This document shows, piece by piece, positions 46,349-64,000 of a stretch of DNA of 64,000 nucleotides. The DNA lies in the IMG/VR virus record IMGVR_UViG_3300037851_000671, positions 64,001 to 128,000 of that record. One strand, written 5' to 3'. A program made the position numbers and the translations under genes. Below the pieces are notes generated by a model. It made no database searches. It saw only the letters and a list, made by a program, of their open reading frames with translations, and was not told the DNA's origin. Position 1 is the stretch's first letter, and each line of letters begins with the position of its first letter. Source of the DNA: a virus. Its lineage: Duplodnaviria > Caudoviricetes.

Positions 46349-47467
46349 ATGAAAATAAAAATACAACAATTCCTTTTTGGCGTTAACCATTCTTGGGCGT
46401 TTGTTGGTCAGAATCTAGGAAGATCTCTGCTGAAACTTGGGCATGATGTAGAGTTCGTTTCAACAGATGGAATAGTTGAAAAATATGTTCCATCTGATTT
46501 GAAGCCGCACGTTAGAATCAAGCCAACCGGAATTTATGACTGCCAAATAAGTTATACAGCTCCGCATAATTGGCATTATTATCTTGCACACGGCACAAAG
46601 AACAAATTTGGAATATGGAATTACGAATATAACAATCGTCAATTTACAGATGAATATAGAACCCTATTAGCTGGGTTTGCCAAGCATTACAAAGCATGTA
46701 ATTATGTATTGCCATCATCTGAGTTTACGAGAGAAGTATTCAGGAGCATGTCTATTCCAGATGAAAAGATGAGGGTAGTGCCCCACGGCATCAACCTTGA
46801 AGATTTCGCTTCAGAAAAAGCCATAACACTAAGAACTAACAAGAAAAGAAAAATACTCCTAAACATTGCCCAACCACACAAGCGCAAGGCACTTCATTTG
46901 GCTCTGAAGGCATTTGGAAAAGCATTCACGAAAGATGATGATGTTTGTTTAGTTGCCAAGGTGTTCAAAGAGAATAAGAAAGACCACCAATTTGATGTTG
47001 ACTTTCCTTCCCTGTATAGAACGTTCGAGAGCAAATTTCCGAATCATGCAGAGGTCGAGTTCGTATATGATTTCATCCCAAACATTGCAGAGATTTACAA
47101 AGCATGTGATGTGAACTTCTCGGCAACATTTGCGGAATGCTGGCATCTTCCATCACTTGAAGCATTGGCAGCAGGAATAATTAACGTAGTTCCAAGATAT
47201 GGTGGTCAACTTGATTTCTGCAATGATGAGAACTCTTTGTTAATAGATGGGTCAGTTGTAAGAGCACCAAGAGATCATCAATATTGGCAGTTCAATCCTT
47301 ATGCTGTTCATTTTGAAATAGACACAGATAATGCGGCTAAGAAACTGCAACAGGCTGTTTTTGAGCATGATTCGCTGAAGGCGAAGTTTCAGTCGAGAAT
47401 GCTAGACACCGCCAAACAATTTACCTGGGATTCCGCTGCAACACAAATTCTCAATCTCTGTGAGTGA
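46349..47467 (+). CDS. Glycosyltransferase family 4
   Basis: ECWHLPSLEALAAG..YGGQLDF motif (EX7E-type). Confidence 0.88.
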   Translation: MKIKIQQFLFGVNHSWAFVGQNLGRSLLKLGHDVEFVSTDGIVEKYVPSDLKPHVRIKPTGIYDCQISYTAPHNWHYYLAHGTKNKFGIWNYEYNNRQFTDEYRTLLAGFAKHYKACNYVLPSSEFTREVFRSMSIPDEKMRVVPHGINLEDFASEKAITLRTNKKRKILLNIAQPHKRKALHLALKAFGKAFTKDDDVCLVAKVFKENKKDHQFDVDFPSLYRTFESKFPNHAEVEFVYDFIPNIAEIYKACDVNFSATFAECWHLPSLEALAAGIINVVPRYGGQLDFCNDENSLLIDGSVVRAPRDHQYWQFNPYAVHFEIDTDNAAKKLQQAVFEHDSLKAKFQSRMLDTAKQFTWDSAATQILNLCE

Positions 47468-47504
47468 ATTTTCTTGTTTCGGAAATGCTAAAAACTGCGC
47501 CAAG

Positions 47505-47514
47505 GTTAATTAAC
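47505..47514. promoter_or_regulatory. 10-bp palindrome in an AT-rich 90-nt intergenic gap
   Basis: GTTAATTAAC, with outer inverted copies TGCTAAA (47486-47492) and TTTAGCA (47541-47547). Confidence 0.3.
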
Positions 47515-47559
47515 TTAAGATCTATCTATTAATCAGATCATTTAGCAAGGAGTATGCCA

Positions 47560-61090: not shown

Positions 61091-62168
61091 AAACATACTT
61101 AAATACGCTCATCAGGCGATTGACTCTACATGGATATCGTCAAAAGGTAGGTTTCTTGAGGAGGCTACCTATGACATTGCTAATTTTTACGAACATAGGA
61201 AATTGCCGCTATTGTGTAGCAACGGTACAACGGCAATGCACCTTCTGGCTAGGTGCTTAAAAAAATACCACCCTCATATCAAAAAGATCATTGTACAAAA
61301 CAATGTGTATGTAGCTGCATGGAACGCGTTCCTTTTTGACCAGAGTTATGAGCTAGAAGCTGTTGATGCTTCTGTTGATACCTGGAACTATGATCTTGAT
61401 TTGTTATACGATGTTCTTGGTAAGCAAAACATTGAAGAAACTGCCTTGTTAGTTGTACACAATGTTGGCAACATCATAAACGTTCCAAAAATTCAAAGGG
61501 ATTGGCCTGGACTTGTTGTAGTGGAAGATAACTGTGAGGGTTTTGGCGGAACCTACGAGGACATGAGGTCAGGTGAAGCTGCTGTGTTTTCGGCTATCAG
61601 TTTCTTCGGTAACAAAAACATTACTAGCGGTGAGGGCGGGGCCATTATCTTGAACACGCAAGAAGAACATGATTTTGCGTTTTGTTTACATGGACAAGGA
61701 CAATCATCCAAGCGTTTTATTCATGATGAGCTTGGTTACAACTACCGTATGACCAATATACAAGCAGCTATCCTTCATGGACAGATGCTTGCGTACTCTG
61801 AGATAGCAGATAAAAAACGAAAACTATTCGCTGCGTACCAATCTCTCTTAGAAAACGTTGAAGATGTTGTTTTACCACAGATAGAACCAGGAACCACACA
61901 CTCTAATTGGATGTTTGGTATTCGTGTGCTGAATGGTAATTACAGCGATATGGAATCGTTTTTCAATGAGCGTGCGATAGAGGTAAGGCCAATGTTCTAT
62001 CCCATGACCTCTCACAAGTATCTTGGTCACATAAAACAGAACGGTCTAAAAGTGGCGAAGCAACTAAACCAAGAGTGTTTGATTTTACCAAGCTATCCTG
62101 ACTTAAAAGATCACGAGATATATCACGTTGTGCAAACACTTAAGTGTTATGTAGAAGGAGTTAAATGA
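61059..62168 (+). CDS. DegT/DnrJ/EryC1/StrS aminotransferase, probable GDP-perosamine synthase
   Basis: SNGTTAMHL, VEDNCE, SFFGNKNITSGEGG and GYNYRMTNIQAA motifs. Adjacent to gmd. Confidence 0.85.
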   Translation: MIPIYAPYLNENILKYAHQAIDSTWISSKGRFLEEATYDIANFYEHRKLPLLCSNGTTAMHLLARCLKKYHPHIKKIIVQNNVYVAAWNAFLFDQSYELEAVDASVDTWNYDLDLLYDVLGKQNIEETALLVVHNVGNIINVPKIQRDWPGLVVVEDNCEGFGGTYEDMRSGEAAVFSAISFFGNKNITSGEGGAIILNTQEEHDFAFCLHGQGQSSKRFIHDELGYNYRMTNIQAAILHGQMLAYSEIADKKRKLFAAYQSLLENVEDVVLPQIEPGTTHSNWMFGIRVLNGNYSDMESFFNERAIEVRPMFYPMTSHKYLGHIKQNGLKVAKQLNQECLILPSYPDLKDHEIYHVVQTLKCYVEGVK

Positions 62169-63142
62169 GGAAAGCGTGCATCACTGGAATTACTGGGCAA
62201 ACGGGTAGCTATCTAACAGAACTTTTGCTTGATAAAGGCTACGAAATTCACGGCATGGTCAGACGTAGCAGCTCTTTCAACACAGAGCGTATCGACCATG
62301 TATTCGATAGAGTAAAATTGGTCTACGGAGATCTTTCTGACTACTCTTCTATCTCTAACTGGATCCAAAAGGTTCAACCAGACGAGTTCTATAACCTGGG
62401 GGCCATGAGCCATGTTCGTGTGTCGTTTGATATCCCAGAGTACACAATGGACATTGGAGCTACTGGAGTGGTGCGTTGTCTGGAGGCTATTCGTCAACAC
62501 AGTCCTAAAACCAAGTTCCTACAAGCTTCTACCAGCGAACTGTTTGGTGGTTTCAATCCGCCACAGAACGAGAACTCTCCATTCTATCCGCGTTCACCAT
62601 ATGGAGCGGCCAAGATTGCTGGTTACTGGTCTACCATAAACTACAGAGAGGCATATAACATTTACGCAGTGAATTCAATCAGTTACAATCACGAATCAAG
62701 CAGGAGAGGTGAGACATTTGTAACGCGAAAGATTACAAGAGCGGCTACTCGCATCAAGCTTGGTTTACAAGACAAACTTGTTCTTGGTAATCTATCAGCC
62801 AAGCGTGACTGGAATCATGCCAAAGATGTAGCGAATGCCATGTGGCTGATGATGAACGCCCCTCAGGCTGATAACTGGGTTGTGTCTTCTGGTGAGATGC
62901 ACTCTGTTCAAGAGTTTGCAGAGATGGTGTTCAAGAAATTAGACCTTGACTGGAATAGGTACGTTGAAAGCGATGCTAAGTATTTTCGACCAACAGAAGT
63001 CGAGGAACTGTGTGGCGATAGCACTAAAATTAGGACCCAGCTTGGTTGGAAACCAGAATATTCATTTGAGCAACTTGTTGACGAAATGATTCAACATGAT
63101 TTGAAATTAGCTGGACAAGAGCTTATCATAAAAAGGATGTGA
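62165..63142 (+). CDS. gmd: GDP-mannose 4,6-dehydratase
   Basis: ITGITGQTGSYL, YNLGAMSHVRVSF, PRSPYGAAK and HESSRRGETFVTRKIT motifs. Confidence 0.96.
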   Translation: MRKACITGITGQTGSYLTELLLDKGYEIHGMVRRSSSFNTERIDHVFDRVKLVYGDLSDYSSISNWIQKVQPDEFYNLGAMSHVRVSFDIPEYTMDIGATGVVRCLEAIRQHSPKTKFLQASTSELFGGFNPPQNENSPFYPRSPYGAAKIAGYWSTINYREAYNIYAVNSISYNHESSRRGETFVTRKITRAATRIKLGLQDKLVLGNLSAKRDWNHAKDVANAMWLMMNAPQADNWVVSSGEMHSVQEFAEMVFKKLDLDWNRYVESDAKYFRPTEVEELCGDSTKIRTQLGWKPEYSFEQLVDEMIQHDLKLAGQELIIKRM

Positions 63143-63143
63143 G

Positions 63144-64000
63144 ATGAAGAAAATACTAGTTACCGGATCTGGCTCTTTTTTGGGTCAGCATGTGGTTCCG
63201 TTGCTTAAAAGCGTTACTGGTTTCGAGGTTCTAACACCACGTAGAGATGAGCTGGATCTTTTCGACAGGGCACAGACAAAAACGTATCTGCGTAGACACC
63301 AGCCAGATACCATCCTTCATATGGCGGCTCTTTGTGGTGGGATTGGAGCAAACAAAAATAGCCCTGCCATGTTCCTTCAGCGCAACGTTGAGATGACCAT
63401 GAACTTGTTTGAGGGGGTCCTGTTCACCAATAGATACAATGACAGCGTGCCATACTTTCGTGGGTTCGAACCAATCCAACGTGTCTATGGACTTGGTTCG
63501 GTGTGTATGTATCCGAAGTTCACTCCGGTGCCATTCAAGGAGGAGAACATCTGGAACGGCATGCCAGAGGAAACCAATTTTCCATACGGCGAGTCAAAAA
63601 GGGTTTTGCTGGTGATGCAGCAGGCATATCGCAAACAGTTCGGACTTCGTGGTGCTCATCTGGTTCCTGTCAACATGTACGGCGAGCATGACCACTTTGA
63701 CCTTGAGAACAGTCACGTCATTCCAGCTCTCATTCGTAAGTTCGTGGAGGCCAGGGATTTCGACATTCCATCTGTTGAAGTGTGGGGCAACGGCGAGGCT
63801 ACCAGAGAGTTCTTGTATGCTGGAGATTGTGCCAAAGCTATCGTTAAAGCTGTGACCACCTCTTTGGACTACAATGAACCTATAAATCTCGGCACTGGCG
63901 TTGATATATCAATCAAGAGGCTGGCCGAGAAGATTAAGAATCTCACCGGATACAACGGACAGATAACCTTCACTGGTGATGTGGTTATCAACGGTCAGCC
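63144..64000 (+). CDS. fcl: GDP-L-fucose synthase (3'-truncated by window)
   Basis: Absent from the ORF track. Manual translation from ATG 63144 gives MKKILVTGSGSFLG..HMAALCGGIGAN..LGSVCMYP..PYGESK..PVNMYG..SHVIPALIRKF..WGNGEATREFLY. Confidence 0.93.
   Translation, partial: MKKILVTGSGSFLGQHVVPLLKSVTGFEVLTPRRDELDLFDRAQTKTYLRRHQPDTILHMAALCGGIGANKNSPAMFLQRNVEMTMNLFEGVLFTNRYNDSVPYFRGFEPIQRVYGLGSVCMYPKFTPVPFKEENIWNGMPEETNFPYGESKRVLLVMQQAYRKQFGLRGAHLVPVNMYGEHDHFDLENSHVIPALIRKFVEARDFDIPSVEVWGNGEATREFLYAGDCAKAIVKAVTTSLDYNEPINLGTGVDISIKRLAEKIKNLTGYNGQITFTGDVVINGQ

What the first reader, a model, noticed from the sequence alone, without database searches (positions are those of the whole stretch)
46349..64000. 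At least 17.6 kb self-contained glycan biosynthesis island fused to the tail module, with only soluble enzymes
Seen: about 21 consecutive genes start 27 nt after the last fibre gene, with no terminator visible between them. They include five GT2, one GT4, GT10, GT11, a CgeB-type GT, three GT9-like proteins, two methyltransferases, SGNH, ATP-grasp, HAD, an aminotransferase, gmd and fcl. I recognised no flippase, polymerase, polyprenyl-phosphate priming transferase or multi-pass membrane protein. Established: O-antigen conversion cassettes (gtrABC) and Wzx/Wzy pathways need such membrane components. Inference: the glycan is built stepwise in the cytoplasm on a soluble acceptor such as virion proteins, giving a complex glycan coat more like giant eukaryotic viruses than typical phages.
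Basis: partly seen in the sequence, partly recalled or inferred. Interest (0 to 1): 0.85.

Follow-up and report, generated by a model that had tools for sequence, protein, structure and literature searches.

The report
Membrane-free sugar-chain gene island in huge phage
A huge uncultured freshwater phage carries, right after its tail-fibre genes, about 25 genes that make unusual sugars and join them into a chain using only soluble enzymes; such islands are already known from large phages, and whether the sugars end up on the virus particle or on the host surface is still undecided.

Summary
From 46349 there are 21 back-to-back genes in the window, 20 on the + strand, and the GT10 gene on the - strand. 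The island runs on to about 67438 (about 21 kb, 25 genes).

It encodes 11 glycosyltransferases: GT4, five GT2, GT10, GT11, a CgeB-type enzyme and two GT9-like folds. It also encodes two methyltransferases, SGNH, ATP-grasp and HAD proteins, a perosamine-synthase-like aminotransferase, Gmd, Fcl and a further 4,6-dehydratase.

No flippase, polymerase, priming transferase, GtrA or ABC-2 permease is found in the 218-kb record, and no multi-pass protein lies in the island.

Relatives keep the island's ends and vary its middle, like a serotype locus. Wherever the left border can be seen in huge-phage relatives, the gene before it is a fibre-type gene.

The core of the island is an N-acyl-perosamine cassette holding an ultra-conserved 102-aa protein of unknown function, which is widespread in uncultured phages.

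The acceptor is not shown. I put virion proteins at about 0.45 and host envelope glycolipids exported by host machinery at about 0.35.

This kind of island is already described in jumbo cyanophages, and this scan has found similar islands on other DNA. It is a new member of a known kind.

The parts
43332..46322 (+). 996-aa tail fibre with a dockerin-type Ca-binding repeat. This is the gene immediately upstream of the island (context).
   Evidence: Pfam Dockerin_1 E 3.2e-8. Homologues at 56-61% identity precede the same island in L004, L005/G003, L007/G001 and L108.
46349..47467 (+). GT4-type (GT-B) glycosyltransferase, the conserved left-end gene.
   Evidence: PF13439 and PF00534 above cut-off. 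66-69% identical in G001, G002 and L004.
47554..48339 (+). GT2 glycosyltransferase (a).
   Evidence: PF00535 E 9e-17. Conserved in G001 and G002.
48341..49150 (+). GT2 glycosyltransferase (b).
   Evidence: PF00535 E 1.7e-5. 45-49% identical in relatives.
49147..50130 (+). GT9-like GT-B fold protein 1.
   Evidence: No Pfam hit. ESM-Atlas features score 0.96 to a GT9 cluster and structure TM 0.63 to a PF01075 cluster.
50127..50903 (+). GT2 glycosyltransferase (c).
   Evidence: PF00535 E 9e-14; weak TAGT match below cut-off.
50905..52551 (+). 548-aa protein with tandem CBM-like jelly-roll domains and a short C-terminal Rossmann-like piece (the ORF opens at 50851). It is not GT9-like.
   Evidence: AF2 model pLDDT 64 with three beta domains. 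Foldseek matches to CBM22/CBM6/CBM51 tandems, E 1e-8 to 1e-11. Homologues of 532-685 aa carry a longer C-terminal alpha/beta domain. Present in G001 and L108, absent in G002.
52537..53445 (-). GT10-type fucosyltransferase, the only minus-strand gene.
   Evidence: PF00852 E 2e-6 above cut-off. A homologue in opposite orientation is also in G002.
53478..54239 (+). GT2 glycosyltransferase (d).
   Evidence: PF00535 E 5.5e-17. 52% identical to its neighbour.
54236..54976 (+). GT2 glycosyltransferase (e), tandem paralogue of (d).
   Evidence: PF00535 E 2.9e-16. Paralogy shown.
54973..55716 (+). GT11-type alpha-1,2-fucosyltransferase.
   Evidence: PF01531 E 4e-25.
55644..56687 (+). CgeB-type GT-B glycosyltransferase. 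The true start is probably an internal Met near 55701-55713.
   Evidence: PF13524 E 7e-20. Homologues in G001, L107, L108 and the ENA contig.
56684..57352 (+). SGNH/GDSL-type hydrolase or acyl-esterase.
   Evidence: PF13472 E 0.0012, below cut-off. N-terminal GDSH motif.
57349..57957 (+). FkbM-family methyltransferase.
   Evidence: PF05050 E 2e-11.
57971..58876 (+). GT9-like GT-B fold protein 2, member of a mostly viral family.
   Evidence: No Pfam hit. Atlas model pTM 0.87, TM 0.71 to a PF01075 cluster, and nearest clusters 92-100% viral. Homologues in 27 of 78 p102 loci and in huge phages LR756504 and LR756501.
58990..59298 (+). p102: an ultra-conserved 102-aa helical protein of unknown function (the ORF opens at 58954).
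   Evidence: More than 1,095 clusters at 73-81% identity. 39 invariant columns. AF2 pLDDT 87, helical hairpin. No informative fold match. Weak DUF4254 match.
59261..59881 (+). Class I SAM methyltransferase.
   Evidence: PF13489 and PF08242 above cut-off.
59851..60789 (+). ATP-grasp ligase, candidate N-acylating enzyme for the amino sugar.
   Evidence: PF15632 and PF02655. NF009405, 121 bits. It occupies the cassette where other phages have a GNAT, PglD-like or formyl transferase.
60752..61090 (+). Short HAD-like phosphatase.
   Evidence: Weak HAD-family matches below cut-off. DLDGT motif. Co-occurs with the ATP-grasp in 12-14 related loci.
61059..62168 (+). DegT-family sugar aminotransferase, perosamine-synthase-like.
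   Evidence: PF01041 E 9e-61. Best solved relatives are GDP-perosamine synthases 3BN1 and 3DR4, E 1e-41. Within 10 kb of p102 in 74 of 80 loci.
62165..63142 (+). GDP-mannose 4,6-dehydratase (Gmd).
   Evidence: TIGR01472, 439 bits against a cut-off of 415. 72-73% identical in relatives.
63144..64000 (+). GDP-L-fucose synthase (Fcl), cut by the window end; the gene ends at 64133.
   Evidence: Full-length 329 aa read from L002:144-1133. Nearest solved structure 1BSV, GDP-fucose synthetase, E 1.5e-49. NF047922 scores 242 bits, below its cut-off of 500.

Best explanation
This is a roughly 21-kb, 25-gene glycan-assembly locus of a huge freshwater myophage that works entirely on the cytoplasmic side.

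Shown at the gene level:
- It makes GDP-L-fucose (Gmd plus Fcl).
- From the same Gmd intermediate it makes a perosamine-type 4-amino-4,6-dideoxy sugar (perosamine-synthase-like DegT).
- It has a third NDP-hexose 4,6-dehydratase.
- It has 11 soluble glycosyltransferases of at least six families, two methyltransferases and an SGNH enzyme.

Inferred: the amino sugar is N-acylated (ATP-grasp, HAD) and perhaps methylated.

Inferred: these enzymes build a branched, fucosylated, methylated hetero-oligosaccharide step by step. Across relatives the ends of the locus are fixed and the middle is swapped, for example for sulfotransferases, Kdo or sialic-like genes, or different N-acyl transferases. It therefore behaves like a serotype locus under diversifying selection.

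The acceptor is inferred, not shown. I favour the phage's own virion proteins, most likely the fibres encoded just upstream. They would be glycosylated in the cytoplasm before or during assembly, as in chloroviruses, mimiviruses and mycobacteriophages.
For: Gene content.

No membrane or export parts:
- None in the island or the 218-kb record.
- No Wzx or GtrA in relatives G001-G004.
- Only 3 of 1,903 ORFs in 80 related loci have three or more hydrophobic segments, and none is the size of a flippase.

Position:
- The island starts 27 nt after the dockerin fibre, on the same strand, with no terminator-like signal above chance.
- The same fibre-then-island order is found in L004, G001, G003 and L108.
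- In the rearranged relative G002, the gene before the island is a different fibre-type protein carrying a Peptidase_S74 chaperone domain.

Conserved ends and variable middle.

Precedents for soluble, virus-encoded virion glycosylation:
- PMC9614988 and PMC7826918.
- Mycobacteriophages, as cited in PMC12619734 and PMC11256854.

GC content matches the rest of the genome, and inteins or homing endonucleases have targeted gmd and the dehydratase gene in this clade. Both fit long-resident genes that matter to the phage.
Against: - Nothing here shows sugars on any protein.
- The glycosyltransferase families present (GT9-like, GT4, GT2, GT10, GT11; GT25 in related loci), and fucose and N-acyl-perosamine, are classic LPS and O-antigen components.
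- Core or LOS assembly needs no phage-encoded membrane protein.
- In smaller marine phages the minimal cassette lies among RNR, SSB and RecA genes, not virion genes.
- The fibre adjacency rests on only two independent arrangements within one clade.
- About half of the genome is unseen.
- No Ser/Thr-rich C-terminal tails of the mycobacteriophage kind were seen.
- The published reading of such clusters is modification of the host surface (PMC1079782, PMC7824862, PMC12801897).
Confidence: 0.45

Rival explanations
1. Host envelope remodelling. The soluble phage enzymes extend a host lipid-linked acceptor at the inner face of the membrane. That acceptor could be lipid A-core (LOS-type) or Und-PP-linked O-antigen or capsule units. 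Host MsbA, Wzx or an ABC exporter then moves the product outward. The result would change the cell surface during a long infection, for example to block superinfection or grazing.
For: - The families are typical of LPS and LOS loci: GT9-like, GT4, GT2, GT10 and GT11, and GT25 in related loci.
- Fucose and N-acyl-perosamine are O-antigen sugars.
- The locus varies like a serotype locus.
- The minimal cassettes are not linked to virion genes.
- This is the standard reading for jumbo cyanophage clusters (PMC1079782, PMC7824862, PMC12801897).
Against: - No exporter, ligase or priming enzyme is found in any of the fragments.
- Host Wzy and Wzx enzymes are usually specific for their own repeat unit (general knowledge).
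- Replacing surface LPS in a non-growing, lytically infected cell is slow (inference).
- In the huge-phage clade the island always follows a fibre gene on the same strand.
- The host is unknown.
Confidence: 0.35
2. Another cytoplasmic target or product. This could be glycosylation of a non-virion phage or host protein, or synthesis of a free oligosaccharide or small-molecule glycoside.
For: - All enzymes are soluble.
- The ATP-grasp, HAD and methyltransferase sub-module resembles secondary-metabolite tailoring (discussion in PMC7824862).
- The p102 protein has an unknown role.
Against: - Eleven glycosyltransferases plus two fucosyltransferase families suggest a large glycan rather than a metabolite.
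- No aglycone-forming genes lie in the island.
Confidence: 0.12
3. Sugar hypermodification of phage DNA, that is, glycosylated hydroxymethyl-pyrimidines.
For: - Phage glycosyltransferases related to LPS enzymes can put mono- to trisaccharides, including heptose, on 5hmC (10.1101/2023.12.21.572611).
- One GT2 gives a weak TAGT match at E 0.005, below cut-off.
- The minimal cassettes lie next to nucleotide-metabolism genes.
Against: - No thymidylate-synthase-fold hydroxymethylase and no TET/JBP dioxygenase is found in G000-G004.
- Eleven glycosyltransferases, fucosyltransferases and methyltransferases far exceed any known DNA glycan.
- Half of the genome is unseen, so this is not excluded.
Confidence: 0.05

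Closest known systems
'LPS' / 'cell-wall synthesis and modification' / capsular-polysaccharide clusters of jumbo T4-like cyanophages (P-SSM2, S-SCSM1, S-SCSM2R; PMC1079782, PMC12801897, PMC7824862)
   Same: - Large lytic myophages with clusters of many glycosyltransferases from several families (including GT2, GT10 and GT11) plus SDR sugar-nucleotide enzymes.
- The clusters differ between related phages.
- Function has never been tested.
   Different: - The phage here is a huge uncultured freshwater phage with an unknown host.
- The island directly follows fibre genes.
- It contains GT9-like proteins, a tandem-CBM protein and the p102/DegT N-acyl-perosamine cassette.
- I did not test homology to the cyanophage genes. 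No GenBank phage apart from the huge phages LR756501/LR756503 and LR756504 matched the GT9-like protein or p102, and megablast of the whole island found nothing.
Giant-virus virion glycosylation clusters (chlorovirus PBCV-1 A064R, A111/114R, GMD and GMER; Mimivirus 6- to 33-gene clade-specific clusters; PMC9614988, PMC7826918)
   Same: - The virus makes its own nucleotide sugars, including GDP-fucose via GMD and GMER.
- Glycosyltransferases are mostly soluble and cytoplasmic.
- Methyltransferases are present.
- Cluster content varies by clade.
   Different: - Those are eukaryotic viruses in which the glycans were shown chemically on capsid or fibril proteins. Here the acceptor is unknown.
- No sequence relationship was shown.
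Mycobacteriophage virion O-glycosylation (Che8, Corndog, Myrna; Freeman et al. 2023, cited in PMC12619734 and PMC11256854; the paper itself is not held)
   Same: Phage-encoded glycosyltransferases decorate virion proteins in the cytoplasm without export machinery.
   Different: - Those phages have one to a few glycosyltransferases.
- Their acceptors are the C-termini of the capsid and tail-tube subunits.
- No comparable Ser/Thr-rich tails were seen here.
- This island is about ten times larger and has its own sugar-nucleotide pathways.
Bacterial LPS-core / LOS loci (waa, lgt) and the spore-crust sps/cgeB system of Bacillus subtilis (from general knowledge)
   Same: - Glycans are assembled by soluble or peripheral GT9, GT4, GT2 and GT25 or CgeB-type enzymes with no dedicated flippase or polymerase in the locus.
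- The spore crust is a glycan laid onto a protein surface inside the mother cell.
   Different: - The acceptors there are lipid A-Kdo or spore proteins.
- Here the GT9-like proteins do not match PF01075, and no heptose or Kdo genes lie in this island.
gtrABC and Wzx/Wzy seroconversion cassettes of temperate phages
   Same: They are phage-borne genes that alter a glycan.
   Different: They need membrane proteins (GtrA, GtrB, GtrC, Wzx, Wzy). None is present here.

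Membership tests
gtrABC O-antigen glucosylation cassette | GtrA-type small flippase (PF04138) | tested here: not met
   No match in G000 or G001-G004. The control rings in 12 of 14 genomes.
gtrABC O-antigen glucosylation cassette | Membrane-anchored GtrB and multi-pass GtrC | tested here: not met
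   The hydropathy scan finds no multi-TM protein in the island, and the five GT2 proteins have no hydrophobic segment.
Wzx/Wzy-dependent O-antigen or capsule locus | Wzx flippase (PF01943) and Wzy polymerase (PF04932) | tested here: not met
   Searches give no match; controls ring in 13 and 10 of 14 genomes. Caveat: the record is about 51% complete.
Wzx/Wzy-dependent O-antigen or capsule locus | Polyprenyl-phosphate priming transferase (PF02397 or PF00953) | tested here: not met
   Searches give no match.
ABC-transporter-dependent polysaccharide locus | Wzm-type ABC-2 permease (PF01061) | tested here: not met
   One search gives no match; the control rings in 14 of 14 genomes.
Jumbo-phage 'LPS/CWSM' glycan clusters | Cluster of several glycosyltransferase families plus SDR sugar-nucleotide enzymes in a large myophage | tested here: met
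   Contractile-tail genes (sheath initiator, Baseplate_J) lie upstream.
Jumbo-phage 'LPS/CWSM' glycan clusters | Content differs between related phages | tested here: met
   Compared G000 with G001, G002, L107, L108 and the ENA contig.
Giant-virus-type autonomous virion glycosylation | Virus-encoded nucleotide-sugar synthesis and soluble glycosyltransferases | tested here: met
   Gmd above the equivalog cut-off, Fcl, and no TM segments.
Giant-virus-type autonomous virion glycosylation | Glycan chemically demonstrated on virion proteins | not testable with these tools
   Needs virions. No isolate exists, and no RNA or proteome data were reachable.
Mycobacteriophage-type virion O-glycosylation | Ser/Thr-rich C-terminal acceptor on capsid or tail-tube subunits | tested here: inconclusive
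   No protein in the 218-kb record has a strongly Ser/Thr-rich last 30 residues; the maximum is 37%, in a 171-aa protein. The capsid and tube genes were not individually identified.
Phage DNA sugar-hypermodification gene clusters | Source of hydroxymethyl-pyrimidine (TS-fold hydroxymethylase, or C5-methyltransferase plus TET/JBP) | tested here: not met
   PF00303 and PF12851 are absent from G000-G004. C5-methyltransferase was not searched, and half of the genome is unseen.
CAZy GT9 / Pfam PF01075 heptosyltransferases (for 49147 and 57971) | Match to the family's sequence model | tested here: not met
   No PF01075 hit even at E up to 10.
CAZy GT9 / Pfam PF01075 heptosyltransferases (for 49147 and 57971) | GT-B fold resembling GT9 members | tested here: met
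   Atlas structure TM 0.63 and 0.71 to clusters that are 100% PF01075. This is fold likeness only.
GDP-perosamine synthase (for 61059) | Closest characterised relatives are Per enzymes, and the gene sits beside gmd | tested here: met
   3BN1 and 3DR4 at E 1e-41, ahead of other sugar aminotransferases, and adjacent to gmd. Substrate specificity is not testable here.

The most novel reading that the evidence does not exclude
Huge phages of this clade coat their tail fibres or the whole virion with a complex glycan that varies between strains. The glycan would be fucosylated, carry N-acyl-perosamine, and be methylated or sulfated. It would be built in the host cytoplasm by a serotype-like locus. 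The one universally conserved non-catalytic part of that locus, the 102-aa p102 protein, would be a new essential factor of a phage-specific amino-sugar pathway. This would amount to a bacteriophage 'glycocalyx' comparable to those of giant eukaryotic viruses.
Probability: 0.35. Interest if true: 0.75.

Novelty: new member of a known kind. Interest (0 to 1): 0.45.

Why it matters
Large glycan clusters in big phages have been catalogued for twenty years without anyone knowing what they glycosylate.

This locus gives a well-defined test case:
- It follows the fibre genes.
- It is demonstrably free of export machinery in the sequence available.
- It has clear predicted sugars to look for (fucose and an N-acyl-perosamine).
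- It has natural variants in relatives.

If the sugars are on the virion, phage particles would carry variable glycan coats. That would affect host recognition, environmental stability and immune recognition. If they are on the host, a lytic phage re-dresses its host with a complex new glycan.

Separately, the p102/DegT cassette marks a very widespread, uncultured group of phage sugar pathways whose most conserved protein has no known function.

Tried and rejected
- Megablast of the island against 50,697 GenBank phages found no match.
- Sigma-70 promoter and intrinsic-terminator scans were not above shuffles. An 8-mer enrichment search in intergenic regions found only a tRNA-like word and no phage promoter motif.
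- Sequencing runs: only one DNA run, the possible source, was listed. No RNA holder was listed, so co-transcription with the tail genes could not be examined.
- Complex prediction of p102 with the DegT aminotransferase returned 'no answer'. It is not used as evidence either way.
- Fold searches for p102 against PDB and the Atlas gave only generic helical hairpins.
- PDB sequence searches with two GT2 proteins and the ATP-grasp gave only generic, weak hits.
- The idea that the 471-aa ORF after fcl matches the C-terminal extension of the fused Fcl in G001 found no significant similarity. Its weak chimallin hit (E 0.013) is treated as chance.
- I first concluded that the fibre adjacency was specific to one lineage. 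I revised this after finding a Peptidase_S74 fibre-type gene before the G002 island and the same fibre-then-island order in L108.
- DGY as a glycosylation sequon tied to this module: the motif is about 7-fold enriched in G000 and partly conserved in position. It shows no excess in LR756504, which carries p102 and a GT9-like gene, and at most a slight excess in LR756501, which has only GT9-like genes. A link is therefore unsupported.
- The moraphage paper (PMC12619734) describes core glycosyltransferases in another aquatic jumbo lineage. I could not tie that lineage to this phage.

Full report
**Setting.** The window is bases 64001-128000 of a 218,772-bp IMG/VR virus record that CheckV rates 51% complete. 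The whole genome is therefore probably above 400 kb. Upstream of the finding lie contractile-tail genes: a sheath-initiator-like gene, Baseplate_J, a 2227-aa protein with a ConA-like lectin domain, and a 996-aa fibre with a dockerin repeat. GC content is even across the window, 0.39-0.46, and the island does not stand out.

**Observation.** From 46349 to the window end I count 21 genes, with gaps of 86 nt or less or overlaps. The first starts 27 nt after the fibre stop.
- Pfam and NCBIfam confirm GT4, five GT2, GT10 (on the minus strand), GT11, a CgeB-type GT-B, an FkbM and a second methyltransferase, an ATP-grasp, a DegT aminotransferase, Gmd (above the equivalog cut-off) and an Fcl-like SDR.
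- SGNH and HAD score below cut-off but carry the GDSH and DLDGT motifs.
- Two proteins with no Pfam match, 49147 and 57971, are GT9-like by ESM-Atlas features and structure. Their nearest clusters are mostly viral. They do not match PF01075 itself.
- The 566-aa protein at 50851 is not GT9-like. With seven homologues, AlphaFold gives three beta-sandwich domains and a short Rossmann-like tail. Foldseek matches tandem CBM22, CBM6 and CBM51 modules. Longer homologues carry a fuller C-terminal alpha/beta domain, so it may be a glycan-binding transferase or its remnant.

**Extent.** Fcl ends at 64133. It is followed by a 471-aa unknown protein, a NUMOD3 and a TnsA-like endonuclease gene, and an RmlB-like NDP-hexose 4,6-dehydratase (66503-67438; nearest solved structure is a dTDP-glucose 4,6-dehydratase at E 6e-47). 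A TubZ/PhuZ-like tubulin and a helicase come next.

**Membrane parts.** A hydropathy scan of all 214 called proteins finds no multi-pass protein in the island. The few elsewhere have no glycan-export family. Six-frame HMM searches of the full record find no Wzx, Wzy_C, GtrA, Bac_transf, WecA/MraY-type or ABC-2 permease, and the positive controls work. Relatives G001-G004 also lack Wzx and GtrA.

**Predicted chemistry.**
- Gmd plus Fcl give GDP-L-fucose. The nearest solved Fcl relative is E. coli GDP-fucose synthetase.
- The aminotransferase's best solved relatives are GDP-perosamine synthases, E 1e-41, well ahead of other sugar aminotransferases. It abuts gmd, so a perosamine-type sugar is the likely product.
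- GT10 and GT11 are fucosyltransferase families.
- The exact structures remain inference.

**Relatives.** The fibre protein finds five related IMG/VR contigs at 56-61% identity.
- In L004, G003 and G001 the fibre is followed by GT4, GT2, GT2, GT9-like, GT2 and the CBM protein. After a different middle come the CgeB-type gene, a GT9-like gene, gmd, fcl, the dehydratase and the tubulin.
- G001 lacks GT10, GT2d/e, GT11 and the methyltransferase/ATP-grasp/HAD/DegT block. It has an R2K ATP-grasp instead.
- In G002 and G004 the dockerin fibre is followed by other genes. In G002 the island lies elsewhere, still joined to the dehydratase, tubulin and helicase block (G004's 76-kb contig shows no gmd).
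- The gene just before the G002 island is a 468-aa protein with a Peptidase_S74 endosialidase-chaperone domain, a hallmark of tail fibres and spikes.
- The G002 island also has two sulfotransferases, a GNAT, an FkbM methyltransferase and two IS605 TnpB insertions.
- A 239,683-bp JGI contig (L108) repeats the G000 order, from the dockerin fibre through GT4 to gmd.
- A 409-kb contig (L107) shows the right end: dehydratase, tubulin, helicase.
- An ENA contig has Kdo or sialic-type genes and a GT29 in its middle.
- Overall the ends are conserved, the middle varies, and a fibre-type gene sits on the left wherever that border can be seen. That fibre link rests on only two independent arrangements in one clade.

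**A conserved core.** The small ORF at 58990-59298 (p102) gives only a weak DUF4254 match, yet it has more than 1,095 cluster representatives at 73-81% identity. Nearly all are exactly 102 aa, with 39 invariant columns and an invariant ...QRKHKTY end.
- It is 72% identical in the 636-kb huge phage LR756504, where the neighbouring DegT is 47% and the GT9-like protein 33% identical.
- In 80 IMG/VR loci, a DegT homologue lies within 10 kb in 74, and immediately downstream in 31.
- An SDR of the gmd/fcl type is present in 50 of those loci, and a GT9-like homologue in 27.
- The gene just upstream is an N-acyl transferase of three alternative kinds: GNAT in 24 loci, PglD-like in 12 and formyltransferase in 10. 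G000 has no such transferase beside p102; its ATP-grasp/HAD pair, between p102 and DegT, is the candidate substitute.
- p102 therefore belongs to an N-acyl-4-amino-6-deoxyhexose cassette.
- Its model is a confident helical hairpin with no informative structural match.
- In small marine phages the minimal cassette sits among RNR, SSB and RecA genes, not virion genes.
- Only 3 of 1,903 ORFs in these 80 loci have three or more hydrophobic segments. The membrane-free design is therefore general.

**Which acceptor?**
- For virion proteins: the position after fibre genes, the membrane-free design, and the precedents in chloroviruses, mimiviruses (PMC9614988, PMC7826918) and mycobacteriophages.
- For host envelope lipids: the LPS-type families and sugars, the minimal cassettes that are not linked to virion genes, and the published view of cyanophage clusters (PMC1079782, PMC7824862, PMC12801897).
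- DNA glycosylation is unlikely. No hydroxymethylase or TET was found, and there are far too many transferases, although phage glycosyltransferases of LPS ancestry can modify DNA (10.1101/2023.12.21.572611).
- My estimates: virion 0.45, host envelope 0.35, other 0.12, DNA 0.05.

**Side test.** At the DNA level there are 83 forward matches against 17 for the control. It is concentrated in the large fibre-like proteins, and many positions are conserved in relatives. It shows no excess in LR756504, which carries p102 and a GT9-like gene, and at most a slight one in LR756501, which has only GT9-like genes. I cannot tie it to this glycan system.

**Novelty.** Clusters of this kind are described in jumbo cyanophages. 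Earlier notes from this scan report similar membrane-free, variable islands in other huge phages. This is a new member of a known kind. The p102/DegT cassette and the repeated fibre adjacency are the new details. No RNA data could be reached.

Noticed in passing
window 58990-59298: This 102-aa helical protein (p102) is conserved at 73-81% identity across more than 1,000 metagenomic clusters, far above its neighbours. It almost always sits between an N-acyl transferase and a DegT aminotransferase. Its function is unknown, and LR756504 is the only one of 50,697 GenBank phage records that has it.
   Followed up: yes
window 1206-46322 and genome-wide: The Asp-Gly-Tyr tripeptide occurs 79 times against about 11 expected. 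It is concentrated in large fibre-like virion proteins, and many positions are conserved in relatives. No excess is seen in the huge phage LR756504, and at most a slight one in LR756501.
   Followed up: partly
L016:11184-13346 (G001) and the same gene in G003: gmd is interrupted in frame by about 390 extra residues with a weak LAGLIDADG match, which is probably an intein. G000's gmd is uninterrupted.
   Followed up: partly
L002:1120-2535 (window-extended 64120-65535): A 471-aa ORF overlaps the fcl stop by 14 nt and has no family match; its weak chimallin hit (E 0.013) is probably chance. In G001 and G002 Fcl is instead fused to C-terminal extensions (836 and 513 aa) that are not detectably similar to this ORF.
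   Followed up: partly
L002:2615-3530 (window-extended 65615-66530): NUMOD3-type and TnsA-like endonuclease genes are inserted between fcl and the RmlB-like dehydratase. They are absent at this spot in G001 and G002.
   Followed up: no
L002:4488-5873 (window-extended 67488-68873): A TubZ/PhuZ-like tubulin sits directly after the island, followed by a helicase. This junction is conserved in G001, G002 and the 409-kb contig L107.
   Followed up: partly
L018:925-2073 and L018:6041-7336 (G002): Two IS605 OrfB/TnpB (Cas12f-like TNB) genes are inserted inside the glycan island of relative G002, which also has two sulfotransferases.
   Followed up: no
L019:6181-9460 and L019:13674-14966 (genome 206181-214966): Two radical-SAM genes lie next to a 283-aa protein whose homologues sit inside the islands of G001 and G002. 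A third SDR (430 aa, with an N-terminal extension) is nearby. This may be a second, detached part of the sugar system.
   Followed up: no
window 29005-31152: The only multi-hydrophobic-segment protein in the window (715 aa) lies in the tail module and has no Pfam match.
   Followed up: no
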